Assembly: GCA_963805965.1 (NCBI GenBank)
Contig: CAWDVQ010000011.1
Coordinates: 235,802 to 299,801, forward strand
DNA: 64,000 nucleotides
Reading direction: 5' to 3'
Source: an uncultured Gammaproteobacteria bacterium
GTDB lineage: Bacteria; Pseudomonadota; Gammaproteobacteria; Steroidobacterales; Steroidobacteraceae
Below, one piece after another: positions 6,490 through 19,156 of the stretch (positions are counted from its first letter, which is position 1; each line of letters starts with the position of its first letter). Made by a program: the position numbers and the translations under genes. The notes beneath the pieces were generated by a model. That model was not told where the DNA came from. It did no database searches and was given only the letters and a program-made list of their open reading frames with translations.

Positions 6490-6563
6490 GCGCCCGTAGC
6501 TCAGTTGGATAGAGCATCAGGCTTCGAACCTGAGGGTCGGGAGTTCGAATCTCTCCGGGCGCG
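6490..6563 (+). tRNA. tRNA-Arg, anticodon UCG
   Basis: Hand-folded cloverleaf. Acceptor GCGCCCG/CGGGCGC, D-arm GCTC-AGTTGGATA-GAGC, anticodon arm TCAGG-CTTCGAA-CCTGA (anticodon TCG), variable GGGTC, T-arm GGGAG-TTCGAAT-CTCTC, discriminator G. CCA is not fully encoded. Confidence 0.9.
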
Positions 6564-6572
6564 CAAATCGAT
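6522..6572 (+). repeat. attL-type direct repeat (3' part of tRNA-Arg plus 8 nt)
   Basis: cttcgaacctgagggtcgggagttcgaatctctccgggcgcgc (43 nt exact), one mismatch (a vs g), then aatcgat. The same sequence is at 12551-12601. Confidence 0.9.
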
Positions 6573-6599
6573 CAATTACTTGCCGCTGATCGGCAATGC

Positions 6600-7685
6600 T
6601 CAGTTGACCAAACGTAGCGAAAACGTAGCGTTCTCTGCTACGTTTTTGCCGCGCGGCGCGACCTTCAGTTCTGGAACTTCCGGTTGCCGCTCGATGCGCC
6701 TGGCCACGGAACTTAGTTTCTCCGGGGCCAGATGCGCATAGCGCAGCACCATCTCGTACGACCTCCAGCCTCCCAGCTCCATCAGCTCCTGCAGTGAGGT
6801 GCCGCTCTGCACGTGCCAGGAGGCCCAGGTGTGCCTCAGGTCGTGGAAGCGGAAGTCCTCGATGCCGGCACGCTGCTTCGCCTTGTCCCAGGCTGTCGAG
6901 CTCTGGTGGATGCGCTGCCCGGCGAAGGTGAAACACCAGCGCCGGTGCTGACCCCGCGTCGACTCGAGCGCCGCCACGGCGTCCGCATTGAGCGGAATAC
7001 CGCGGCCCTCGCCCGACTTCGTGGTGCCATGATCGAGCCATGCCACCTTCCGAACGAGATCCACCCGGCTCCATTCGAGCCCGTGAATCTCGCCGGCACG
7101 ACAGCCGGTCGCCAGTGCGAACTGCACGATCGGCTTCATGTGCTCAGGCAGCGCCGCGATCAATCGGTCAGCCTCCTCGCGTCTCAGGAAGCGCACGCGC
7201 CGGCGGGGTTCCTTCAGCATCCGAATCTTCGGAACCCCACGCAGCCAACGCCAATCCTGATGCGCGACATTCAATATCCGCCGAACCACCTCGAGAGCGC
7301 GATTGACGGTCGCGTTCGAGACACCATCCTTCGACTTGCGATCGCGAATGTACGGCTGCAATGCCGTCATATCGATCGCATCCAACCGCAGAGAGCGTAG
7401 ATAGGGGTCGAGCTTCTTCAGGTGATCCCTGTCATTGAAGAGGCTCCTCTTATCCGCAAACTCCTCGAGATACCGTATGACCGCTTGCTGCCATACGAAA
7501 ATACCGAGAAGCCCCTGCTGCCGAGCTTCAATCGCCTCGTTCTTCAGGCGGACGACGTAGGCTTCGGCGTCGGTGCGTTCGACACACCCAGTGCTTTGGC
7601 ATACGCGGCGTCCATCCGGGAGAACGAGGTTGATCCACCAGAACCGCGAATCCTTGCGGCGGTAGAGTCCACGTTCACGGGCCAT
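6600..7685 (-). CDS. tyrosine-type site-specific integrase
   Basis: MARERGLYRRKDSRFWWINLVLPDGRR N-terminus. Catalytic-domain motifs ATGCRAGEI..L.W, HDLRHTWASW, LGGWRSYEMVLRYAH (R..HxxR..Y). Adjacent to the tRNA. Start could also be 7715. Confidence 0.9.
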   Translation of the reverse strand: MARERGLYRRKDSRFWWINLVLPDGRRVCQSTGCVERTDAEAYVVRLKNEAIEARQQGLLGIFVWQQAVIRYLEEFADKRSLFNDRDHLKKLDPYLRSLRLDAIDMTALQPYIRDRKSKDGVSNATVNRALEVVRRILNVAHQDWRWLRGVPKIRMLKEPRRRVRFLRREEADRLIAALPEHMKPIVQFALATGCRAGEIHGLEWSRVDLVRKVAWLDHGTTKSGEGRGIPLNADAVAALESTRGQHRRWCFTFAGQRIHQSSTAWDKAKQRAGIEDFRFHDLRHTWASWHVQSGTSLQELMELGGWRSYEMVLRYAHLAPEKLSSVARRIERQPEVPELKVAPRGKNVAENATFSLRLVN

Positions 7686-7873
7686 AGAATCTCCTTCCAG
7701 GCCCGCCCTCGGCACTTATCCTGCTGCATGCGCTGGTCCAGATCAATGCGGTCGTAGAGCTTGCAGCGGCCCTTGCGGATGAAGGGCAACCCCATGCCGT
7801 CAAGGAAGCGCACGCTGCAACGCACATAGGCGGCAGCCTCGCGGCGGGTGAAGTAGCGTGCAGGCGCAGCCAT
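7544..7873 (-). CDS. excisionase/AlpA-like helix-turn-helix protein (boundaries uncertain)
   Basis: MAAPARYFTRREAAAYVRCSVRFLDGMGLPFIRKGRCKLYDRIDLDQ resembles MerR/excisionase-type HTH proteins found upstream of island integrases. The 3' ~140 nt overlap the integrase start, so the real end or frame is doubtful. Confidence 0.5.
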   Translation of the reverse strand: MAAPARYFTRREAAAYVRCSVRFLDGMGLPFIRKGRCKLYDRIDLDQRMQQDKCRGRAWKEILWPVNVDSTAARIRGSGGSTSFSRMDAAYAKALGVSNAPTPKPTSSA

Positions 7874-8420
7874 CGGCTGGGCGCTCGGTGCCGCCCTGGA
7901 AAATGCCGATTCTCGGTGACGCCGAGGCGATGAGAAATCGAGCGGCAATTGCCCAGTCGGCGGCACCCCGTCGGGCAAACCCGCATTTTCAGTGCGATTC
8001 GGCATGTCGTCTTGCGGTTCCTGCCCATCATACCGGCGCCTTTCGGGCATCGACTATGAGTGCAGCAGGAGGTCAGCGCGAGAGCGGGTGGATCATCGAT
8101 CGGTCAAGACCGGCAACCTTGCAGACTTGCGGTAGCCGAAGGATCTGGACATAAGGGGCAGTCATGACAGTTCGAGCGTTCATGAGTGTGATGCCAGCGT
8201 GTGGTTCCGGTTGCTTCAGGGCGCGTTGTCACGTGAAGGAAGGATACCGCTCTCGCGCGCAAGATCGAGGGCGCGATTCGCAGTAAATTCAGCGAATCTC
8301 GGATCGCCTATTCTCTTGCCGCGGTGGGCCGTGTGCGGATCAGCGGGCATCATCGCGCTTCAGCGAACCACGACGGCGGCGATCAGTCGAAGTGAGGTTT
8401 CGCTGAATTTTGAGCGGATT

Positions 8421-8463
8421 GCAGGATAGCGCGCGGCTTACGTTTAGGGCCAAATTGGCCCTA
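8421..8463 (-). promoter_or_regulatory. oriT-like element: 19-nt palindrome plus TATCCTGC nic-type motif (minus strand)
   Basis: tagggccaaattggcccta at 8445-8463 has 9-nt perfect arms. Sixteen nt away on the minus strand lies TATCCTGC (plus strand gcaggata, 8421-8428), matching the MOBP-type YATCCTG/Y nic consensus. It sits directly upstream of, and overlaps, the MobC-like gene start. Confidence 0.4.
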
Positions 8464-9053
8464 TGCGTTGCACGGAAACCTTGAAGACGCACGTCTCGCG
8501 GGAGATGAAACTCCAGGCGAGGTCGGCTGCAGATCGCGAATTCCTGTCGGAAGCGGCTTGGCTCAAGCGCCTTGTGATGCGCGAGATTCGGGTTCGCAGC
8601 GACGCATCAGGTGCCGAGAGTGATCTCTTCCGGTCGGAGAGTATTCCCGGGCCGACCAGCGCGGCTCCTGGGGAGAATGGTGCCGGTAAGCCAATGCTGG
8701 TGCGCCTCACAGTCGAGGACAGGCTGCTCCTGGACGCCCGGGCCGAGGCGCGCGGCATGCGACCGGCCACCTACGCATCCATTTTGCTCCGATCCCATTT
8801 GCGCCAGCTCACGCCACTACCCAAGGACGAACTCCTTGCGCTCAAGCGCAGCATCGCTGAGCTGGGATCGATTGGCCGGAACATCAATCAGATCGCGAGG
8901 GCAGTGAGCGGCGGCGGAGAGGTGCCCGGTTCGCTACGGGGGGAGTTCTGGGGGATGCTGAAGATCTGCTCGGCGTTGCGCGACAACATCAAGACGCTTC
9001 TCAGTGCGAACCTGGCTAGTTGGGCGGCGGGGCACCCCCGTGGAGACACATAG
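8463..9053 (+). CDS. MobC-family / ribbon-helix-helix relaxosome accessory protein
   Basis: The C-terminal half, LVRLTVEDRLLLDARAEARGMRPATYASILLRSHL...ELLALKRSIAELGSIGRNINQIARAV, is the MobC mobilisation-protein motif. A second RHH-like segment lies near the N-terminus. Start may be 8505 instead. Confidence 0.7.
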   Translation: MRCTETLKTHVSREMKLQARSAADREFLSEAAWLKRLVMREIRVRSDASGAESDLFRSESIPGPTSAAPGENGAGKPMLVRLTVEDRLLLDARAEARGMRPATYASILLRSHLRQLTPLPKDELLALKRSIAELGSIGRNINQIARAVSGGGEVPGSLRGEFWGMLKICSALRDNIKTLLSANLASWAAGHPRGDT

Positions 9054-9183
9054 TCCGCCCAAATTGACTATGGGAACCTGGTTGCCGTATGTGGCTGAAG
9101 TTGACCCCTGAGCCGTCGGTGAGAAATGTCTGCTATCGGGCAGCGAAACATGGAACGCCGAGTGTGCAGTAGGGGCGGCCTGC

Positions 9184-9513
9184 TCATTTAGCAAGTATGA
9201 CAATGACCAGCGCAACTATGAGGGCGCCGACAAAAACGGTCAGAAGGAAGAATTTCTGAGAAACCCTGTTCGGCGTATCTACGGCGGCGCCAAGCTTTAC
9301 GAGAATCTCGTTGGCTCTCTGAAAGTCGCCGCCATTTCGAATGTAAATGCAAACGGTAAATGACGACCCGCCCGGCAAGGGTCCACCTGTCCTATAGCAA
9401 TGAACCCTAGCCTGCGTCAGCGCGTCGATTGCAGAATCAGCGAAGTCGGAGTCATCCGTTTCGTAGGTCAGTACGCCGCTGTTACCAACGCCCGTTCGTT
9501 TGATCACCCGCAT
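9184..9513 (-). CDS. hypothetical protein with C-terminal transmembrane anchor
   Basis: 109-aa ORF in the AT-richer island core. Hydrophobic C-terminus FFLLTVFVGALIVALVIVILAK. No family recognised. Confidence 0.45.
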   Translation of the reverse strand: MRVIKRTGVGNSGVLTYETDDSDFADSAIDALTQARVHCYRTGGPLPGGSSFTVCIYIRNGGDFQRANEILVKLGAAVDTPNRVSQKFFLLTVFVGALIVALVIVILAK

Positions 9514-9962
9514 GAGTCCACGCTATCGCACTGTCCTCTTAGTCGCGACTTCCTTCATCGGCGGCGTACGATCGCGACTTCGCGGCGATCGCCCGGATTG
9601 AACCCGCGCTCGCGCTGGTTGCTACCTAACAAGCCGCGGATGCAGCGCATCCCCGAAAAAAGAAAAGCCCCCGCTTAACGGGACCATGTTCGCTTGAATT
9701 GGTAGCGGGGCTGCGCTACTGTCCCGGAATTCATTGATTCGCCAAGCGAATGGCCGAGCCACGCAACGCTGCCCGAATCCGCTCCCACAGCGCCCCCTTG
9801 AAGACTTCATCCTAATTAAGAATCAAAGAAGGATGCGCTTTTTCACTTAGTAACTGTTAATTGGTGGCAGCTAAACTCGTCGTACCGCGTGGCTAGTGGC
9901 ACAAACACAAGCATGAGCAGAAGCGAAACAAGCAGACCATTTTCAATCTCGGAGAGGCCAAA

Positions 9963-10403
9963 ATGAAACAATTCGAGCCGAACGAGCGTCACGCTCTTGA
10001 AACCGCCGCCATACAGGCCGGCTTTCGACTTGAGCCGAGCGCCTATGATTGCTTGGCAATGATTGAAAATGCAAAGCATCGAACCCCTGAAGAGCTTCTA
10101 TCGGGCGAGCCCATCATGTTTGGGCGGTTTGCAATAGGGGGTAAGCTCGAATATTGTTCGGTCTCATTTGCTGAACGTGACGGTCACGAATTGGCGCAAG
10201 CGAGGGATAAAGACGGGCGGGTAATTGCCGAATATCGAGCCCAGATAATGGTGTTGGCACGCCGTCCGGGAGCTTCCTCGCCATTTGTCGTGATTGCTTT
10301 TCGACATTGTTGGCTTAAAGTCGAACTAGTAGATGGATGTTTGTTGGCCTCCGGCGGCTGTGGGACTGCATCATGGTCCTGGTCGTCCTGCGACTATTTC
10401 TGA
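9963..10403 (+). CDS. hypothetical protein
   Basis: 146-aa ORF preceded by ggagagg 6 nt upstream of the ATG. Lies in the AT-richer island core. No family recognised. Confidence 0.5.
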   Translation: MKQFEPNERHALETAAIQAGFRLEPSAYDCLAMIENAKHRTPEELLSGEPIMFGRFAIGGKLEYCSVSFAERDGHELAQARDKDGRVIAEYRAQIMVLARRPGASSPFVVIAFRHCWLKVELVDGCLLASGGCGTASWSWSSCDYF

Positions 10404-10993
10404 CAGCTCGAAGATCCTTGCGAAGGAATCGAAGCCTGCCCTCAGCAAGTCGTGCCCAGCATAAATCGGTCCTTTGAAAGGCAACTTCCTCTCGTCGCGG
10501 CTATACCGCGAAATGCTATATAGCCGGAGAATGCACTGAGCAGAGCGTCGAGCTTGAAAAGATGCTACAGGACGGGCGTCTGTCCCCGGCAATTGCTGGT
10601 GCGGCACTTGATCGAACTGTGCAGTGCGCGAGATGCCACTCCGCCCTCGTGATTCCTCTCCCTTGCGTTGAGCATGTGCAGGCGTCCCCCAAGCATGCTG
10701 GTGACGTCATCCGGAATCAGGAAATCACCCATGATTCTCAACGTCCATTGCGATTGCAATCGTTGCCATGCTAGGGGCCGGGAGCTAAGAGCCGATATCC
10801 ATCGGTCTTAGCCTACCGTAAGTGGCCAACGGCCGCTTTCCGGCGATCATTCACAGGTCGCAACTGGCCGCAGTTGGCCGGCTGCCGCCGGATCGCTCGA
10901 GCGTTGAACACGCCCATTAAAGGTGGCGGCCAGATTTGGGAAAGTCGTGAAGCTGCCACCGCTTCGGATGATCTGGGCATCTGCATTGTTGCG

Positions 10994-11275
10994 CTATGCA
11001 GCTTTTCGTACCCTTATTTCGACGCGCAGGCCCGCCGCTGCCGCCATGCTAACGAGAGCATCCAGACCAAACAGGTCGAGTTTTCCACGAATGAGGTCGG
11101 ATACGCGCGGCTGCGTGACACCGAACAGCTTCGCGGTCTGGGCCTGGCTGAGGTCGGTGTGGGCTAGATGCGCTTTCAGAGCAATCATCAGGGCCGAGCG
11201 CAGCTTCATATTTTCAGCTTCCTCGTGCGTACCCTCGATGGCGTCCCACACGCTAACAAATCGGTTTTTGCTCAT
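10994..11275 (-). CDS. XRE-family HTH protein (antitoxin-like)
   Basis: MSKNRFVSVWDAIEGTHEEAENMKLRSALMIAL...LSQAQTAKLFGVTQPRVSDLIRGKLDLFGLDALVSM is the recurrent ~95-aa XRE antitoxin-like family. An alternative GTG at 11368 would form a GTGA overlap with the brnA stop. Confidence 0.8.
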   Translation of the reverse strand: MSKNRFVSVWDAIEGTHEEAENMKLRSALMIALKAHLAHTDLSQAQTAKLFGVTQPRVSDLIRGKLDLFGLDALVSMAAAAGLRVEIRVRKAA

Positions 11276-11364
11276 TGCCCTAGCTCCGTCGTCAAGTCGC
11301 CGTAGCGCTTCTCGGCCAGGTCCAGTTTGCAGGCGCCTTGGGATCAATACCATGGTGCCGGTTG

Positions 11365-11616
11365 TCACCGCGTCTGCGCGAGCTCTTCCCGTACGATATT
11401 TCGTACTTGGGTGGCTGTCACGGGCTGCTCGACGTTGCTGGCATGTTTCGCCAACGCATCGTTGATGAGCGTCTGGTACCCCTTGCCGGTGCGCTCAGAT
11501 TCAGCTTTGAACTTTTCCAGTATCACGTCATCCAGATAGATCGTGATCCTGGTCTTGCCGGTCGTCGGTAGCACTGCACCCCGCTTACCGCGGGAAAAGT
11601 CATATTCCCTCTTCAT
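11365..11616 (-). CDS. brnA: BrnA-type antitoxin (CopG/RHH-like)
   Basis: MKREYDFSRGKRGAV....KTRITIYLDDDVILEKFKAESERTGKGYQTLINDAL-type sequence (here ITIYLDDVILEKFKAESERTGKGYQTLINDAL). Overlaps the upstream brnT by 17 nt. Confidence 0.85.
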   Translation of the reverse strand: MKREYDFSRGKRGAVLPTTGKTRITIYLDDVILEKFKAESERTGKGYQTLINDALAKHASNVEQPVTATQVRNIVREELAQTR

Positions 11617-11872
11617 AGGCTCTTCGCTCCTTCGGCTCCGCTTTCCGAGCAGAAATCAACCGCACATCGTCGTCTCGCTCAGCCCAGACGACCACCATGA
11701 GTGTTCCCACAGAATTCAAACCGACCGTAACGTATCGTACCTCTCCATCCGTCGAATCATCTTCGACCGTCAATGCGAGGGGATCGAGAAGCACGCCGTC
11801 TGCCTCCGACAGCGAGACGCCGTGCTTGGCGATGTTGGCCTCGTTCTTCTTCGGGTCGAACTCAGGGCTCAC
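11600..11872 (-). CDS. brnT: BrnT-type toxin (DUF497 ribonuclease family)
   Basis: FDPKKNEANIAKHGVSLSEA...EDDSTDGEVRYVTVGL...LMVVVWAERDDDVRLISARKAEPKERRAYE is typical BrnT. Confidence 0.85.
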   Translation of the reverse strand: MSPEFDPKKNEANIAKHGVSLSEADGVLLDPLALTVEDDSTDGEVRYVTVGLNSVGTLMVVVWAERDDDVRLISARKAEPKERRAYEEGI

Positions 11873-11935
11873 ATTGCTATTATATGTATATTGTGCATAT
11901 CACGCAAGGGGGCCCGAGGGCTTCCCCTACACCGT

Positions 11936-12124
11936 TCACTGGCGCGGGCTTGCTGCACCAGTAATTGATCGCTGTACGTACCTCAATTGGCCCTGCGCCC
12001 CGCAATCATCTTCAAAAAAGCGCATGCACCCGTTCAGTCGCTGCGCGCGGATTATTGCGAGCGAGTCATAAATGGCGTCGAAGTCGGCAGGCGCTGCGCG
12101 AAAGGGCTCGATCCGACGCGGCAT
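11936..12124 (-). pseudogene. ParE/RelE-like toxin, apparently truncated or degenerate
   Basis: 62-aa ORF coupled to parD by a TAATG overlap at 12122-12126. The N-terminus AAPADFDAIYDSLA resembles the ParE ADLDDIWDYIA motif, but the ORF is about one third too short and the rest is unrecognisable. Confidence 0.4.
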
Positions 12125-12390
12125 TAGCTCCGCGCCCGGGCGCGAGCGGCCAATCGACGGCGACCTCGCCGGATAACCAGGTTGATATCTAGTTTACCGG
12201 CCGGTGCGGAGTCGAGGCCCTTCTGGATCTCCGACCGCAACCTGGCAAGCTGTTCGCTGCGACGCTTCTGATGCAGGACCGCAGCGACGATGGCGGCTTC
12301 GCGGCTGCGATACGCGCCGTTGCGCACCTGCGAGGCCACGAATTCTTCCAGAGCGGCTGGAAGTTTTAGCGGGGTGATGGGCATTGCCAT
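12124..12390 (-). CDS. parD: ParD-family antitoxin
   Basis: LPAALEEFVASQVRNGAYRSREAAIVAAVLHQKRRSEQLARLRSEIQKGLDS is the ParD (CC2985-type) RHH antitoxin pattern. Confidence 0.8.
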   Translation of the reverse strand: MAMPITPLKLPAALEEFVASQVRNGAYRSREAAIVAAVLHQKRRSEQLARLRSEIQKGLDSAPAGKLDINLVIRRGRRRLAARARARS

Positions 12391-12550
12391 TCCAGCTTAG
12401 ATTACGAGCCTCAGCGATCAAACCGGAAGATCGACACCGTAGCGAAAACGTAGCGTTTGATGCCGTTTCATGCGCTACGGTGCCTGTTTCGAGAGAGGGC
12501 GGGCCTGCTAACTAGTTGAAAACTAAGAACCTGTAAAATCATCTTTGCGA

Positions 12551-12601
12551 CTTCGAACCTGAGGGTCGGGAGTTCGAATCTCTCCGGGCGCGCGAATCGA
12601 T
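12551..12601 (+). repeat. attR-type direct repeat (displaced tRNA-Arg 3' fragment)
   Basis: Same-orientation copy of 6522-6572, 50 of 51 nt identical. No 5' half of a tRNA precedes it. Confidence 0.9.
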
Positions 12602-13265: not shown

Positions 13266-14433
13266 CCGGCGCGCAATGCTGTTCGGCGGGGCCGCCGCGC
13301 TTTTCCTTGGGGGCCTGGCATTTCGCGCCTGGGATCGTGGTGTCTGGTCGGCCGGAGCCGGAGTGGCCTATGCCCCCTGGTCCGATTTCGAAAGCAGCGG
13401 CGTCGATCGCGGCACGCTGCCGCTGCGCGCCGCGATCCTGGCGGCCAATCCGCACGACACCCAGCCCTGGCTGTTTCAGGTGAAGGACAACTCGATCACG
13501 GCGTTTGCCGACCGGACGCGCCATCTGGGATCCTTCGATCCGTTCCGGCGGGAAATGCATCTGGGCCTGGGCGCGGCTGTGGAAAACCTGGCGCTGGCGG
13601 CGCAGGCTCTCGGGTTTTCCGCAAGCATAATGCCGGTGGAGGGCCGACTTACGCTGTCGCCGGACGACGTACCCATGGCGGTGGCGCGGATAGTGTTGCG
13701 GCCGGCGCCGGCCGCGCATGGTGTGCTGTTTACTGCCATCCCACGGCGCCATACCAATCGTGGACCCTATCGCCCGGACCAGCCTGTGGCTGCCGAAACG
13801 CTGCATCGTCTTGCCGGTCTGGTGACCGACGAGAGCGTGCGTGTCATCTTCGTCACCGACAAGATAGCGCGTAACGATTTGGGTGCGCTGATCATCGCAG
13901 CCACCGCTCGCATTGTCGGCGACCCGCAAATGTCGGCCGACAGTGCCCGCTGGTTCCGTACCGGCCGGCGCGACATCGCCGCGCACAGGGACGGTGTCAC
14001 TGTCGATACGTCCGGAGCGTCACCATCAATGGCAGCAATGGCAAAAATGCTTCCCGACCTCGATGCCAGGACGGCGGACCAATATTGGCTCGCCAGCACG
14101 CGCGATACCGCAGTGCCGACTGCGGCGGTGCTCGGCATTCTGCTGGTGCGCGACCGGCTGGACATGAGCGCGGCAATTGCAGCCGGGCGCACCTGGCAAA
14201 GACTGCATCTGGCCCTGACCGAGGCAGGCCTGGCCGCGCAACCGCTCAATCAGCCGGTCGAATGCGTCGACCGCAGTGCCATGCGCGGCGATGCAGATGA
14301 TATGGCTCCGGCGATCAACAAGTTCACCGCCATGCCGGGCTGGGAGCCCACCTTCATGTTCCGGCTAGGCGTGGCCGACAGCGCGGCGGGCCCTAGCCCG
14401 AGGCGGCCGCTGGCTGCAGTCTTGATGGCATGA
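13255..14433 (+). CDS. Acg-like nitroreductase-fold FMN oxidoreductase with twin-arginine signal
   Basis: N-terminus MAPDRRAMLFGGAAALFLGGLAF (DRRxMLF Tat motif). Also AANPHDTQPW.F, RHLG.FDP.RREMH.GLGAA.ENL and RRHTNRGPY, typical of Acg-family proteins. Overlaps the upstream gene by 11 nt. Confidence 0.65.
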   Translation: MAPDRRAMLFGGAAALFLGGLAFRAWDRGVWSAGAGVAYAPWSDFESSGVDRGTLPLRAAILAANPHDTQPWLFQVKDNSITAFADRTRHLGSFDPFRREMHLGLGAAVENLALAAQALGFSASIMPVEGRLTLSPDDVPMAVARIVLRPAPAAHGVLFTAIPRRHTNRGPYRPDQPVAAETLHRLAGLVTDESVRVIFVTDKIARNDLGALIIAATARIVGDPQMSADSARWFRTGRRDIAAHRDGVTVDTSGASPSMAAMAKMLPDLDARTADQYWLASTRDTAVPTAAVLGILLVRDRLDMSAAIAAGRTWQRLHLALTEAGLAAQPLNQPVECVDRSAMRGDADDMAPAINKFTAMPGWEPTFMFRLGVADSAAGPSPRRPLAAVLMA

Positions 14434-14500
14434 CGCCTGCAAATACCCCCGGATTCCAATATATTATTGCAGCGGACCCACCGGCGAGGGACAGACGGCG

Positions 14501-14923
14501 ATGCGTCACATCTGGGTGTTTGCATTCGCAGCACTGGCGTTGCCAGCCATGCGGCTTGAGGCGCAGCCGCCCGCACCGGTCGACGGACCGGCCGGGTACG
14601 AAGTGGCCTGTTCGCTGCATCCCTCGTCGGCATACCACTCCTGCAGCGATCTTCCTTCGGCGCAGTCCTGCGCGTCCGAACCCAACTTCGCATCGCGGCC
14701 TTCGAAGCAACACACCGGCATCACCTTCGTCAACCGCAGCGACGAGCCGGTCAAGATCTACTGGCTGAGCTTTCAGGGCGCGCGCAAACTCTATCAATAC
14801 CTGCCGCCCGGCGGGCGGCACACGCAACCGACATTCATTGGTCATTACTGGCTGGTGGCATCGTTGACCGAGCAGTGCATCGGCATTTTCAAAGGCGCTC
14901 CGCAATCGATCGCATTTTTCTAG
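14501..14923 (+). CDS. secreted VHL beta-domain-like protein
   Basis: Signal peptide MRHIWVFAFAALALPAMRLEA. The segment TFVNRSDEPVKIYWLSFQGARKLYQYLPPGGRHTQPTFIGHYWLV aligns without gaps to human pVHL 75-119 ([45 protein letters not shown]). Confidence 0.75.
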   Translation: MRHIWVFAFAALALPAMRLEAQPPAPVDGPAGYEVACSLHPSSAYHSCSDLPSAQSCASEPNFASRPSKQHTGITFVNRSDEPVKIYWLSFQGARKLYQYLPPGGRHTQPTFIGHYWLVASLTEQCIGIFKGAPQSIAFF

Positions 14924-17567: not shown

Positions 17568-18338
17568 CTAGATGCCGGCGTACCAGTCGTAACCCTGGTC
17601 CTCCCAGTATCCGCCGCGGCCACGCCCGATGGCACCTAAGCTATCCACCAGCTGCAGGCGCATGATGTACTTGGCCATCTTGTAGCCGAGCTGGCGCTCG
17701 ACCCGCACCCGCAGCGGCGCGCCGTTGGCGATCGGCAGCGTGGCATCGTTGAGTTCGTAGGCAAGAATGGTCTGGGGATGATAGGCATCCTCCATGTCGA
17801 TGCTCTCGTAGTATTTGGTGCCGAGAGCGTCCATTGGATCGGCGCAATGGAACACCACGAAGCGCGCCGCCGCGGTCGGGCGCGCCAGCGCCAGCACGTC
17901 GCCGAGCGGCACGCCCTTCCATTTTCCAATCGCGCTCCAGCCCTCGACGCAGTCATGGCGCGTGATCTGTACCCGGCTGCGCATGGCGCGCAGCTGCTCG
18001 AGCGACAACCCGAGCGGCTGTTGCACCAGGCCATCGACCTGCAGTTGCCAGTTGGAGAAGCCGGCCTGCGCGAGCGCCTGATAAGCGGCATCGTTGGGAT
18101 TGGCGGTGCCGTTGCTGCGGAAGCTCGGCGACAGATCGCGTTCGGTGAACTCCTCGGCCATCGATTTGCGCGCCGTCACCGCATGCTGCACGCGGCGACT
18201 CAGCACCTCACCGGCCTTGAGAATGCCGGGGAACCAGTCGGTGCGCGACAGCGCATCGCAGCCGCCCAGCAGCAGGCCGCCGATGGCGGTCAGCAGGTTG
18301 CGACGCAGGCGGCGCGGCGACTGGCTGTGCTTGGTCAC
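17568..18338 (-). CDS. molybdopterin-dependent oxidoreductase (sulfite-oxidase/YedY-like fold)
   Basis: ITRHDCVEGWSAIGKWKGVPL..VL and GAPLRVRVERQLGYKMAKYI are signatures of the Mo-binding oxidoreductase domain. N-terminus has RRLRRNLL plus an LLGGC lipobox-like motif. GTGA overlap with the upstream cytochrome b gene. Confidence 0.8.
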   Translation of the reverse strand: MTKHSQSPRRLRRNLLTAIGGLLLGGCDALSRTDWFPGILKAGEVLSRRVQHAVTARKSMAEEFTERDLSPSFRSNGTANPNDAAYQALAQAGFSNWQLQVDGLVQQPLGLSLEQLRAMRSRVQITRHDCVEGWSAIGKWKGVPLGDVLALARPTAAARFVVFHCADPMDALGTKYYESIDMEDAYHPQTILAYELNDATLPIANGAPLRVRVERQLGYKMAKYIMRLQLVDSLGAIGRGRGGYWEDQGYDWYAGI

Positions 18339-19156
18339 GTCGGTATCCGGTAGCGGCCGGTAATCATCGAGCGCAGGTTATTCCACACACCGCTGATCAG
18401 GACTTCGAATAAGTGGATCAGCACGAACAGCACCAGCGACCAGGCCACCACGAAGTGCAGCGTGCGCGCCGATTGCCGGCCGCCGATGAATTCCACCCAT
18501 CCGGGCAACGCCGAATCCAGCCGCGGTGACATCGCCCAGCCGGTCAGGATCATGAGTGGCAGCAGGATGAAGATGACTGCCAGGTAGGCGAGTTTCTGCA
18601 GCACGTTGTAGCGTGTCGCGGCCGCCCCGGTGGGATGACGCAGGCGCACGTGATCGAGAATGGAGCGGCCGATCGAGCGCCAATCCAGCCGTGTCGGCAG
18701 CAGGTCGCGCTCTACGTGACGGCTCAGGAATGAAAACGCCAGGTAGACGCAGCCGTTGATCACCAGCAGCCATGCGAAGAAGAAGTGCCAGTGCCGCGCC
18801 ATGGCGAGCCACGGGAAGCTCGGGATCGTAATCCAGGACGGGAAGCCCTTTGCCACCTGTCGGCCGCCGTCGGTCGACAAGCCCAGCACACCGGTGGTGT
18901 TGAAGGTGTGATCAAAAACGCGCGTGGTCCCGACGGTCCTGCCATCGGCCGTGACCGCAGCTCCGGTCTCGAAGATCGGAGCGCGATTGGTGTAGGACGA
19001 CTTGCCCCACGACAGGCTCGGGTGGGCATTGAAGATCTGCAGCCCGCTCATCAGCAGTATCGTCAGTGCGATGACGTTGATCCAGTGGGTGACGCGCACC
19101 ACCAGTGCGTGCCGAAAATATAGATTGCCGCGTGCGGCGGACTGCGATGCTGCCAT
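18335..19156 (-). CDS. cytochrome b (Ni-hydrogenase b-type/cyt b561-like) membrane subunit
   Basis: FRHALVVRVTHWINVIALTILLMSGLQIFNAHP, conserved His-bearing helices and 4-5 TM segments. Coupled to the Mo-oxidoreductase. Confidence 0.75.
   Translation of the reverse strand: MAASQSAARGNLYFRHALVVRVTHWINVIALTILLMSGLQIFNAHPSLSWGKSSYTNRAPIFETGAAVTADGRTVGTTRVFDHTFNTTGVLGLSTDGGRQVAKGFPSWITIPSFPWLAMARHWHFFFAWLLVINGCVYLAFSFLSRHVERDLLPTRLDWRSIGRSILDHVRLRHPTGAAATRYNVLQKLAYLAVIFILLPLMILTGWAMSPRLDSALPGWVEFIGGRQSARTLHFVVAWSLVLFVLIHLFEVLISGVWNNLRSMITGRYRIPT

What the first reader, a model, noticed from the sequence alone, without database searches (positions are those of the whole stretch)
14501..14923. Secreted bacterial protein with a gapless match to the hydroxyproline-binding beta domain of human pVHL
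Seen in sequence: a 140-aa ORF with a clear signal peptide.
- Residues TFVNRSDEPVKIYWLSFQGARKLYQYLPPGGRHTQPTFIGHYWLV align without gaps to human pVHL residues 75-119 ([45 protein letters not shown]).
- The pVHL residues that bind hydroxyproline of HIF-alpha (W88, Y98, S111, H115, W117; established knowledge) correspond here to W, Y, T, H, W.
- N78-R79-S80 and the LPPG turn are identical.
- No alpha domain or BC-box (elongin C binding) follows.

Inference: a periplasmic or extracellular stand-alone hydroxyproline-recognition module. Its ligand is unknown. Candidates are hydroxyproline-containing peptides, collagen-like or plant HRGP material, or a bacterial prolyl-hydroxylase product.
Basis: partly seen in the sequence, partly recalled or inferred. 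Interest (0 to 1): 0.68.

Follow-up and report, generated by a model that had tools for sequence, protein, structure and literature searches.

The report
Exported bacterial VHL-beta domain protein
A soil gammaproteobacterium encodes a small exported protein that is a genuine relative of the hydroxyproline-binding half of the human tumour suppressor pVHL and keeps the pocket residues, but databases already flag such bacterial proteins and their ligand is still unknown.

Summary
ORF 14501-14923 (+) encodes a 140-aa protein.
- **Pfam:** it passes the VHL beta domain model PF01847 (E 1.2e-8, 35.3 bits, cut-off 21).
- **Sequence:** it aligns without gaps to human pVHL 55/60-120 (E about 1e-5). Identity is 40% over residues 75-119.
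- **Fold:** the model has pLDDT 96-97 in the domain. Its top 50 listed PDB matches are all pVHL (E about 1e-7, rmsd 1.7-2.8 Å).

W88, Y98, T111 (S in human), H115 and W117 match the pVHL hydroxyproline pocket. There is no alpha domain.

Wider context:
- The domain belongs to a very large family (4382 clusters at E<=1e-3). Most listed relatives look bacterial, and many have signal-peptide-like N-termini, tandem copies, or fusions to peptidases, lectins and adhesin domains.
- The pocket residues are among the most conserved columns across that family.
- C57 and C126 co-vary as a probable disulfide, which fits export.
- No neighbouring gene is conserved, and no prolyl hydroxylase was found nearby.

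Public sources already tag these proteins as "VHL beta domain", and two papers mention bacterial cases, with function unknown. My verdict is a new member of a known but uncharacterised domain family. It is probably a non-enzymatic binding module. Hydroxyproline specificity is plausible but untested.

The parts
14486..14491 (+). Shine-Dalgarno-like GAGGGA, 9 nt upstream of the ATG
   Evidence: Read directly from the sequence.
14501..14923 (+). Complete ORF of 140 codons plus stop: exported VHL-beta domain protein
   Evidence: There are 81 homologues with strong column conservation. GC3 is 0.74, which is coding-like for this 65.6% GC window.
14501..14563 (+). Predicted Sec signal peptide, aa 1-21 (MRH / IWVFAFAALALPAM / RLEA|Q)
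   Evidence: Inspection and hydropathy. The same layout is seen in the homologues of alignment A1. No dedicated predictor was run, so the cleavage site is inferred.
14564..14692 (+). N-terminal cap of the mature protein, aa 22-64. It carries C37, C48, C57, a short strand at 35-38 and a helix at 52-62. It is specific to the Steroidobacteraceae-type subfamily, apart from the C57..E60 motif.
   Evidence: Alignment A1; AlphaFold2 secondary structure, with pLDDT 89-96 from about residue 31.
14693..14920 (+). Compact seven-stranded VHL-type beta sandwich, aa 65-140 (strands 71-78, 84-89, 95-101, 106-112, 116-120, 126-131, 135-139)
   Evidence: Pfam PF01847 matches aa 65-119. Model pLDDT is 96-97. 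The top 50 listed Foldseek matches are all pVHL.
14762..14764 (+). Codon W88, equivalent to pVHL W88 (pocket wall)
   Evidence: W in 97% of 299 related domain copies.
14792..14794 (+). Codon Y98, equivalent to pVHL Y98
   Evidence: Y in 80% (plus F in 5%) of related domains.
14831..14833 (+). Codon T111, equivalent to pVHL S111 (hydrogen-bond partner of the Hyp hydroxyl in pVHL)
   Evidence: T in 84% and S in 11% of related domains.
14843..14851 (+). Codons H115-Y116-W117, where H115 and W117 are equivalent to pVHL H115 and W117
   Evidence: H in 86% and W in 92% of related domains.
14669..14671 (+). Codon C57, probable disulfide partner of C126
   Evidence: A Cys just upstream of the domain and a Cys at position 126 co-occur: 90 domains have both, 51 have neither, 4 have only one (Fisher p 2.6e-34).
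14876..14878 (+). Codon C126, probable disulfide partner of C57
   Evidence: Invariant in alignment A1; co-variation with the upstream Cys.

Best explanation
**What it is.** The gene encodes a small exported (periplasmic or secreted), non-enzymatic binding protein. After removal of a Sec signal peptide, the mature protein of about 119 residues has two parts. The first is a 40-residue cysteine-containing cap. The second is a compact seven-stranded beta sandwich that is a true homologue of the beta domain of pVHL (Pfam PF01847).

**Where it belongs.** It is one member of a very large, functionally uncharacterised branch of this domain family that appears to be mainly bacterial.

**How it most likely works.** It probably uses the same face of the sandwich that pVHL uses. 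That face is an aromatic pocket (W88, Y98, W117) with two hydrogen-bonding residues (T111, H115). The likely ligand is a short exposed peptide segment, centred on a proline or hydroxyproline-like ring, in an extracytoplasmic protein or peptide.

**What it is not.** It has no alpha domain and no elongin-binding box, so it is not an E3-ligase component.

**Shown versus inferred.**
- Shown: homology, predicted fold, residue conservation, absence of the alpha domain, absence of a conserved operon.
- Inferred: export, the C57-C126 disulfide, use of the pocket for binding, and a peptide ligand.
- Open: whether the ligand must carry hydroxyproline.
For: **Homology and fold.**
- Pfam PF01847: E 1.2e-8, above the gathering score.
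- Gapless phmmer alignment to pVHL.
- A profile search of PDB sequences finds only pVHL.
- The AlphaFold2 model has pLDDT 96-97 in the domain, and all 50 listed Foldseek matches are pVHL.

**A functional pocket is likely.**
- Across 299 domain copies from 148 diverse representatives: W88 97%, Y98 80%, T/S111 95%, H115 86%, W117 92%. With N78 and G93, these are among the most conserved columns. 190 of 299 copies keep all seven.
- Losses at position 111 are associated with losses at 115 and 117 (odds ratios 10 and 42).
- By strand alternation, conserved polar residues (D/N90, Q109, T111, H115) lie on the same face as W88 and W117. That is what a binding surface looks like, not a core.

**Export.**
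- The N-terminus looks like a signal peptide.
- There are four conserved Cys, and C57/C126 co-vary (p 2.6e-34).
- Many relatives have signal-peptide-like N-termini.

**A binding-module role with peptide ligands.**
- The domain occurs in tandem copies.
- It is fused to Peptidase_C14 (5 proteins), the DPP IV N-terminal domain (a prolyl dipeptidase), Peptidase_M6, CAP, TIR, patatin, and adhesin and Ig-like domains.

**No catalytic family matched**.
Against: - No ligand or partner is identified.
- No gene neighbour is conserved beyond very close relatives.
- No prolyl hydroxylase was seen in the window or in any related locus (and the Pfam lists).
- Trp, Tyr, His and Thr sites are also typical of sugar-binding modules, and some fusions are to lectins and a galactose-oxidase-like enzyme.
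- Part of the conservation of W88 and W117 could be structural.
- Model coordinates could not be inspected, so the N-terminal cap could occlude the pocket.
- The co-variation statistics are not corrected for phylogeny.
Confidence: 0.6

Rival explanations
1. It is specifically a hydroxyproline reader. The pocket recognises trans-4-hydroxyproline just as pVHL does. The protein would then bind hydroxyproline-bearing material outside the cytoplasm, such as plant extensins or arabinogalactan proteins, collagen-like proteins, or a product of a bacterial prolyl hydroxylase.
For: - All five pVHL pocket positions are kept, including both residues that hydrogen-bond the 4-hydroxyl in pVHL (S111 as T, and H115).
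- These are among the most conserved columns of the bacterial family.
- One relative fuses two VHL-beta domains to the N-terminal domain of a proline-specific peptidase, DPP IV.
- The close relatives that carry a source title come from soil-type metagenome genomes, for example a palsa isolate, where plant hydroxyproline-rich glycoproteins are abundant (established knowledge).
Against: - No prolyl 4-hydroxylase lies next to any family member examined, or in the 64-kb window.
- A Ser/Thr plus His pair in an aromatic cage can hold other hydroxylated ligands.
- There is no binding data.
- Cytoplasmic family members (retron type X, TIR and caspase fusions; PMC7736814) sit in settings where hydroxyproline is not known.
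Confidence: 0.25
2. It is a carbohydrate-binding (lectin or CBM-like) beta-sandwich module. The Trp/Tyr platform with Thr, His, Gln and Asp side chains would bind a sugar ring. Hydroxyproline binding by pVHL would then be a later re-use of that site.
For: - Relatives are fused to ricin-B lectin (2 proteins), an L-type lectin domain, a galactose-oxidase-like enzyme, PKD, Big_1, invasin and T9SS-sorted surface proteins.
- Tandem duplication and extracellular location are typical of carbohydrate-binding modules.
- The aromatic-plus-polar make-up of the site also fits.
Against: - No known carbohydrate-binding family matches the protein.
- All 50 listed structural matches are pVHL.
- Several fusions are to peptidases and to cytoplasmic signalling or defence domains, where sugar binding is unlikely (PMC7736814).
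- No glycoside hydrolase or sugar-transport gene is a conserved neighbour.
Confidence: 0.15
3. The conserved 'pocket' residues are only fold determinants of a small beta sandwich. The protein would act through another surface, for example as a periplasmic inhibitor or chaperone-like factor in the way other small orphan periplasmic beta proteins do.
For: - It is a single orphan gene with no conserved partner.
- It is a small, disulfide-bonded exported protein.
- Some giant relatives contain a peptidase-inhibitor I36 / beta-gamma-crystallin-type domain.
- The subfamily-specific C-terminal motif CIGIFxAAPxSIAFF is even more conserved than the pocket within the close family.
Against: - Conserved polar residues (T111, H115, Q109, D/N90) on one sheet face are not what a hydrophobic core needs.
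- In pVHL the same positions are surface ligand contacts (established knowledge: Min et al. 2002 and Hon et al. 2002, as cited in PMC6235002).
- Losses at 111, 115 and 117 are associated with each other.
Confidence: 0.1
4. It is a chance resemblance, a spurious ORF, or a recent transfer of an animal VHL gene fragment.
For: - The overlapping frames of this GC-rich DNA contain many spurious ORFs.
- An integrated island lies 1.9 kb upstream.
Against: - Significant E-values come from four independent methods.
- There are 81 close homologues under clear purifying selection.
- 4382 related clusters with many architectures argue against a recent import from animals.
- The gene lies outside the island's direct repeats, in DNA of ordinary GC content.
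Confidence: 0.01

Closest known systems
Human pVHL beta domain (residues about 63-154 and 193-204; Pfam PF01847)
   Same: - It has the same seven-stranded beta-sandwich fold (Foldseek E about 1e-7, rmsd 1.7-2.8 Å over 81-91 aligned columns).
- The alignment over residues 60-120 is gapless and 34% identical.
- N78-R79-S80, LPPG, G114, and the pocket residues W88, Y98, S/T111, H115 and W117 are conserved.
   Different: - There is no alpha domain or BC box, so no elongin C/cullin-2 link.
- It is exported and probably disulfide-bonded rather than cytosolic or nuclear.
- After W117 the chain is much shorter: 23 residues forming two strands, against about 37 in pVHL. The Pfam match stops at profile position 57 of 82.
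- It has an N-terminal Cys-containing cap with a helix in place of the acidic N-terminal tail of pVHL.
- Ser111 is Thr.
Human VHL-like protein (VHLL/VLP), a beta-domain-only paralogue (from my own knowledge: Qi et al. 2004; not checked here)
   Same: It is a stand-alone beta domain without the elongin-binding alpha domain, so it is a binder that cannot itself trigger ubiquitylation.
   Different: VHLL is a cytosolic animal protein derived from VHL that acts on HIF. The protein here is bacterial and exported, and has no known partner.
Secreted VHL-beta hypothetical protein EMK97_00595 of Litorilituus sediminis (PMC9002001, in-silico study)
   Same: It is a bacterial protein predicted to be secreted, with a signal peptide and a PF01847 domain, and HHpred matches it to human pVHL.
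   Different: - It comes from a different gammaproteobacterial lineage.
- That paper did not analyse pocket conservation, disulfides or family breadth, and it proposed tumour-suppressor activity with no bacterial function.
- Its sequence relationship to this subfamily was not tested here.
Retron type X accessory protein (IHF-like domain, TM helix, C-terminal VHL-beta domain; PMC7736814)
   Same: It is a bacterial use of PF01847 as a presumed protein-recruiting module. The authors state that the function of prokaryotic VHL-beta domains is unknown.
   Different: There the domain is predicted to be cytoplasmic and fused to a DNA-binding domain in a defence system. Here it is a stand-alone exported protein with no defence-gene context.

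Membership tests
VHL beta domain family (Pfam PF01847) | Score above the curated Pfam gathering threshold | tested here: met
   35.3 bits against a cut-off of 21, E 1.2e-8, aa 65-119 matching profile positions 3-57 of 82.
VHL beta domain family (Pfam PF01847) | Seven-stranded beta-sandwich fold superposable on pVHL | tested here: met
   The AlphaFold2 model has seven strands and domain pLDDT 96-97. Foldseek gives probability 1.00, E 8e-8, rmsd 1.7-2.8 Å, and all 50 listed matches are pVHL. This is a predicted structure, not an experimental one.
VHL beta domain family (Pfam PF01847) | Signature residues N78, W88, G93, Y98, PG103-104, S/T111, G114-H115, W117 | tested here: met
   All are present, with S111 replaced by T, which is the commonest residue in bacterial members (84%).
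pVHL-type hydroxyproline reader | Hydroxylation-dependent binding of a prolyl-hydroxylated peptide | not testable with these tools
   This needs binding assays or a co-structure. Only the residues are conserved.
pVHL-type hydroxyproline reader | An open, solvent-accessible pocket of the right geometry | not testable with these tools
   The structure tool returns confidence and secondary structure but no coordinates.
pVHL-type hydroxyproline reader | A partner prolyl 4-hydroxylase in the same system or genome | tested here: inconclusive
   - No PHD2-like match was found in the six-frame translation of the window and 24 loci.
- No 2OG-oxygenase family appears among the families listed for window ORFs, but only 25 of 57 families were shown.
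- None appears among the neighbours.
- The rest of the genome could not be searched.
pVHL orthologue (substrate receptor of the CRL2 E3 ligase) | Alpha domain with BC box and cullin box that binds elongin C | tested here: not met
   The protein ends 23 residues after W117. Only the beta-domain model matched, and the alignment to pVHL stops at residue 120.
pVHL orthologue (substrate receptor of the CRL2 E3 ligase) | Cytosolic or nuclear location in an organism that has the HIF-PHD-VHL triad | tested here: not met
   The N-terminus looks like a signal peptide and there is a co-varying Cys pair. The closest homologues that carry a source title are from gammaproteobacterial genomes, several named Steroidobacteraceae. 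The triad is reported only in animals (PMC6235002).

The most novel reading that the evidence does not exclude
Bacterial VHL-beta domains, including this exported protein, could be an ancient and widespread class of hydroxyproline (or proline-ring) readers. This protein would then capture hydroxyproline-bearing peptides or glycoproteins outside the cell.
Probability: 0.25. Interest if true: 0.8.

Novelty: new member of a known kind. Interest (0 to 1): 0.5.

Why it matters
**Current view.** Reviews of oxygen sensing state that the HIF-PHD-pVHL triad exists only in animals, with only the hydroxylase having older relatives (PMC6235002).

**What this adds.** This protein belongs to a family of thousands of clusters, most of them apparently bacterial. 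In that family the five residues that clamp hydroxyproline in pVHL are among the best-conserved positions.

**If these domains bind hydroxyproline or proline turns:**
- the origin of the reader module becomes directly testable;
- a new class of small, stable, disulfide-bonded hydroxyproline-binding reagents would exist;
- existing VHL ligands used in PROTAC chemistry could be tried on bacterial proteins.

**If they bind something else,** that would show what the pocket did before animals re-used it.

**The limit on novelty.** The domain assignment itself is already in public databases.

Tried and rejected
1. **Conserved gene neighbourhood.** I compared 17 loci of the close family and 6 other family contexts. 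Only the gene itself recurs, and synteny is limited to the two nearest relatives. Context therefore gives no functional clue.
2. **Prolyl hydroxylase search.** This single-sequence search could miss collagen-type P4Hs. The Pfam overview of window ORFs listed only 25 of 57 families.
3. **Second word-indexed search.** A search with a diverse domain profile (A4), meant as a survey of architectures, returned only 29 proteins and added little.
4. **False positive.** P0094 in the representative search is a fibronectin-III repeat protein with 24 short matches. The count of 4382 clusters therefore includes some noise, and it also includes some eukaryotes, for example Paulinella P0167.
5. **Solved bacterial structure.** None exists. 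Only pVHL chains match in the PDB.
6. **Promoter and terminator scan.** Nothing usable was found around the gene.
7. **Island membership.** I considered that the gene is part of the neighbouring tRNA-Arg island. I rejected this because the island's 51-nt direct repeats end at 12601 and the GC content returns to normal before the gene.
8. **Pocket geometry.** Inspection was impossible because model coordinates are not exposed.

Full report
**1.

The window contains a 140-codon ORF at 14501-14923 on the + strand. A GAGGGA ribosome-binding-like hexamer lies 9 nt upstream. The translated sequence begins MRH-IWVFAFAALALPAM-RLEA|QPP. That is a basic start, a 14-residue hydrophobic stretch (mean hydropathy 2.16) and a small-residue cleavage motif. 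I had no signal-peptide predictor, so export is an inference from this layout and from the cysteine evidence in section 4.

The match to human pVHL is significant by four methods:
- phmmer against all PDB sequences aligns residues 55/60-120 to pVHL with no gap (E 7.5e-6 and upwards).
- Pfam-A gives a single hit, PF01847 "VHL beta domain" (E 1.2e-8, 35.3 bits, gathering score 21).
- A profile of 29 homologues finds only pVHL chains in the PDB (E 6e-8).
- In reverse, a profile built only from the query's close homologues picks up human pVHL 63-120.

Identity is 18/45 over residues 75-119 and 21/61 over 60-120. N78-R79-S80, L101-P102-P103-G104, G114, W88, Y98, H115 and W117 are identical, and S111 is Thr. 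Residue numbers coincide in the two proteins by accident. The protein stops 23 residues after W117, so there is no alpha domain or BC box.

**2. Predicted structure**

AlphaFold2 was run with the 29-sequence alignment.
- Mean pLDDT is 84.9 overall and 96-97 from residue 50 onward.
- The model has seven strands (71-78, 84-89, 95-101, 106-112, 116-120, 126-131, 135-139).
- These are preceded by a short strand (35-38) and a helix (52-62).

Foldseek against the PDB returns pVHL for all 50 listed matches. Probability is 1.00, the best E is 8e-8, and rmsd is 1.7-2.8 Å for most matches over 81-91 aligned columns.

The bacterial domain is therefore a shortened version of the fold. The Pfam match ends at profile position 57 of 82. 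The last two strands are encoded by the subfamily motif QCIGIFxAAPxSIAFF rather than by the longer 120-154 segment of pVHL.

I could not examine the pocket geometry because coordinates are not provided.

**3. The family**

*Close family.* A word-indexed search found 81 homologues at 43-100% identity.
- Nearly all already carry a precomputed PF01847 hit.
- In GTDB representative genomes, the 15 hits at 48% identity or more are all from metagenome-assembled genomes. They are labelled Steroidobacteraceae or uncultured Gammaproteobacteria, and one is a palsa isolate.
- In this family N78, R79, S80, L89, Y98, F112, C126, G128, F130, P134, S136, A138 and F139 are invariant.
- C37, C48, C57, W88, T111, H115 and W117 are nearly invariant.

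*Wider family.* A profile search of 1.84 billion representative proteins found 4382 clusters at E<=1e-3 and 1270 at E<=1e-10.
- The set contains some noise (a fibronectin-III repeat protein) and some eukaryotes (a Paulinella SAM-TIR-VHLx3 protein).
- Many of the best 150 have signal-peptide-like N-termini. These are short single-domain proteins, two- and three-domain tandems, membrane-anchored forms, and giant proteins with 9-12 copies.
- Fusion partners include Peptidase_C14 (5 proteins), bacterial PH domains (6), CAP, ricin-B and L-type lectins, a galactose-oxidase-like enzyme, the DPP IV N-terminal domain, Peptidase_M6, patatin, SnoaL/DUF4440, OmpA, TonB_C, Big_1/invasin/PKD, and a T9SS sorting domain.

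This is the behaviour of a mobile binding module.

**4. What is conserved**

I aligned 299 domain copies from the 148 best representatives to a profile of the query's domain.

| Position | Conservation |
|---|---|
| N78 | 97% |
| W88 | 97% |
| G93 | 92% |
| W117 | 92% |
| T/S111 | 95% (T 84, S 11) |
| H115 | 86% |
| Y98 | 80% |

- These are among the most conserved columns, and 190 of 299 copies have all seven.
- Five of the seven are the residues that form the hydroxyproline pocket of pVHL. That role is established knowledge (Min et al. 2002 and Hon et al. 2002, cited in PMC6235002).
- Loss of residue 111 is associated with loss of 115 and of 117 (odds ratios 10 and 42, not corrected for phylogeny).
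- One membrane-anchored clade carries S111/A115.
- By strand alternation, the conserved polar residues D/N90, Q109, T111 and H115 lie on the same face as W88 and W117. That fits a binding surface better than a hydrophobic core (inference).

A second signal concerns the cysteines. A Cys within 14 residues upstream of the S65 position (C57 here, in a C-x2-3-E motif) and a Cys at position 126 are present together in 90 copies. Both are absent in 51 copies, and only 4 copies have just one (Fisher p 2.6e-34). I read this as a C57-C126 disulfide that marks an extracytoplasmic type of the domain. C37 and C48 would form a second, subfamily-specific pair.

**5. Context**

The immediate neighbours are:
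- a TMEM175-like channel;
- an Acg-family FMN oxidoreductase with a twin-arginine-like start;
- a VOC/glyoxalase protein and a GNAT acetyltransferase, whose reading frames overlap by a few bases;
- two secreted proteins of unknown family;
- an MsrP-like molybdoenzyme with a cytochrome b561.

None recurs beside homologues. In 17 close-family loci only the gene itself is shared, and synteny is confined to the two nearest relatives. Six other family contexts are all different.

No prolyl hydroxylase was seen. No 2OG-oxygenase family appeared in the Pfam lists available. This is a weak negative, because the rest of the genome could not be searched.

**6. Mechanism**

*Best-supported reading (confidence about 0.6).* The protein is an exported, disulfide-stabilised, non-enzymatic binder. 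It uses the conserved aromatic and hydrogen-bonding pocket on one sheet face to hold a short peptide segment centred on a proline-type ring.

*Evidence favouring peptide ligands.* The domain is homologous to a peptide reader. It is also fused to peptidases, including a proline-specific one, and to cytoplasmic signalling or defence domains.

*Strict hydroxyproline specificity (about 0.25).* This is attractive because both hydroxyl-binding residues are kept. It remains untested and lacks any hydroxylase link.

*Other rivals.*
- A sugar-binding role (about 0.15) is suggested by lectin and oxidase fusions and by the make-up of the site.
- A purely structural role for the residues, with binding elsewhere (about 0.1), cannot be excluded without coordinates or mutants.
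- Chance, a spurious ORF, or recent import from animals are excluded.

**7. Comparison with what is known**

The protein is a member of the PF01847 domain family: gathering threshold, fold and signature are all met. It is not a pVHL orthologue. It lacks the alpha domain, is exported, and is bacterial.

Bacterial PF01847 proteins are already flagged in public databases. They are mentioned in two papers:
- A retron survey states that the function of prokaryotic VHL-beta domains is unknown (PMC7736814).
- An in-silico note describes a secreted VHL-beta protein of Litorilituus sediminis (PMC9002001).

I found no experimental work and no solved bacterial structure. The oxygen-sensing literature still describes the HIF-PHD-pVHL triad as animal-only (PMC6235002).

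**8. Verdict**

The finding is real and correctly described. It is not new as a domain assignment, so I class it as a new member of a known but uncharacterised kind.

What this analysis adds:
- family-wide conservation of the hydroxyproline-pocket residues;
- a co-varying disulfide that marks exported forms;
- the breadth of architectures;
- the absence of any operon partner or nearby hydroxylase.

Interest is moderate (0.5). It would rise sharply if hydroxyproline-dependent binding were shown.

Noticed in passing
window 6490-12601: An integrated island of about 6 kb sits at tRNA-Arg(TCG) (6490-6564). A 51-nt direct repeat of the tRNA 3' half occurs at 6522-6572 and 12551-12601 (98% identical), and a second exact 20-nt repeat at 6613-6632 and 12438-12457. 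The interval between the repeats contains a 371-aa ORF on the minus strand next to the tRNA (6600-7715; one window ORF, not individually identified, matches Phage_integrase), DNA of 53-59% GC against 65.6% for the window, and a ParD-like antitoxin at 12124-12390. The VHL-beta gene lies 1.9 kb outside it.
   Followed up: yes
window about 20000-64000: This stretch is dense in methylamine and glycine-betaine catabolism genes: three MTTB-family methyltransferases, four GCV_T-domain proteins, DAO/FAO_M oxidases, a RACo corrinoid activator, an OpuAC binding protein and ABC transporter parts. Molybdenum-cofactor biosynthesis genes are also present (MoaE, MoeA, MobA-like, Mob_synth_C). Individual coordinates were not assigned.
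   Followed up: partly
proteins P0082-P0086, P0089, P0139: Giant proteins of 900-2000 aa are built of 4-12 tandem VHL-beta domains. They have no signal-peptide-like start and no Cys pair, and some carry a beta-gamma-crystallin / inhibitor-I36-type domain. Their organism and function are unknown.
   Followed up: partly
protein P0148 (686 aa): This protein has a signal-peptide-like start, then two VHL-beta domains, then the N-terminal beta-propeller domain of dipeptidyl peptidase IV, a proline-specific peptidase family. Its contig is only 2.5 kb, so the catalytic domain may be cut off. It is a possible hint that these domains recruit proline-containing substrates.
   Followed up: partly
proteins P0111, P0113, P0114, P0132, P0135, P0138, P0141, P0147: This is a clade of proteins of about 364-401 aa, most starting MIPLN.RQ.LP..AFWY... 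They have an N-terminal hydrophobic segment and a C-terminal VHL-beta domain in which the pocket pair is Ser111/Ala115 instead of Thr/His. The altered pocket suggests a different ligand. Six of the 81 proteins scanned match bacterial PH domains; whether they are this clade was not checked.
   Followed up: no
protein P0034 (alignment A1) versus window 14430-14768: Homologue P0034 is 99% identical in the domain, but its N-terminal 60 residues match the other reading frame of this locus (ORF 14430-14768, '...RRHTTPAAIFLRRSPARPNPTSHRGL'). It is therefore a frameshifted gene call or an assembly error in that metagenome contig.
   Followed up: partly
protein P0167: A eukaryotic transcript from Paulinella chromatophora encodes SAM, TIR and three VHL-beta domains. 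The domain is therefore also used outside the classical VHL architecture in protists.
   Followed up: no
window 17568-19156 (- strand): An MsrP-like molybdopterin oxidoreductase (256 aa) is followed by a cytochrome b561-type membrane protein (273 aa). The layout is that of the MsrPQ periplasmic methionine-sulfoxide repair system, although the scores are below the NCBIfam equivalog cut-off.
   Followed up: partly
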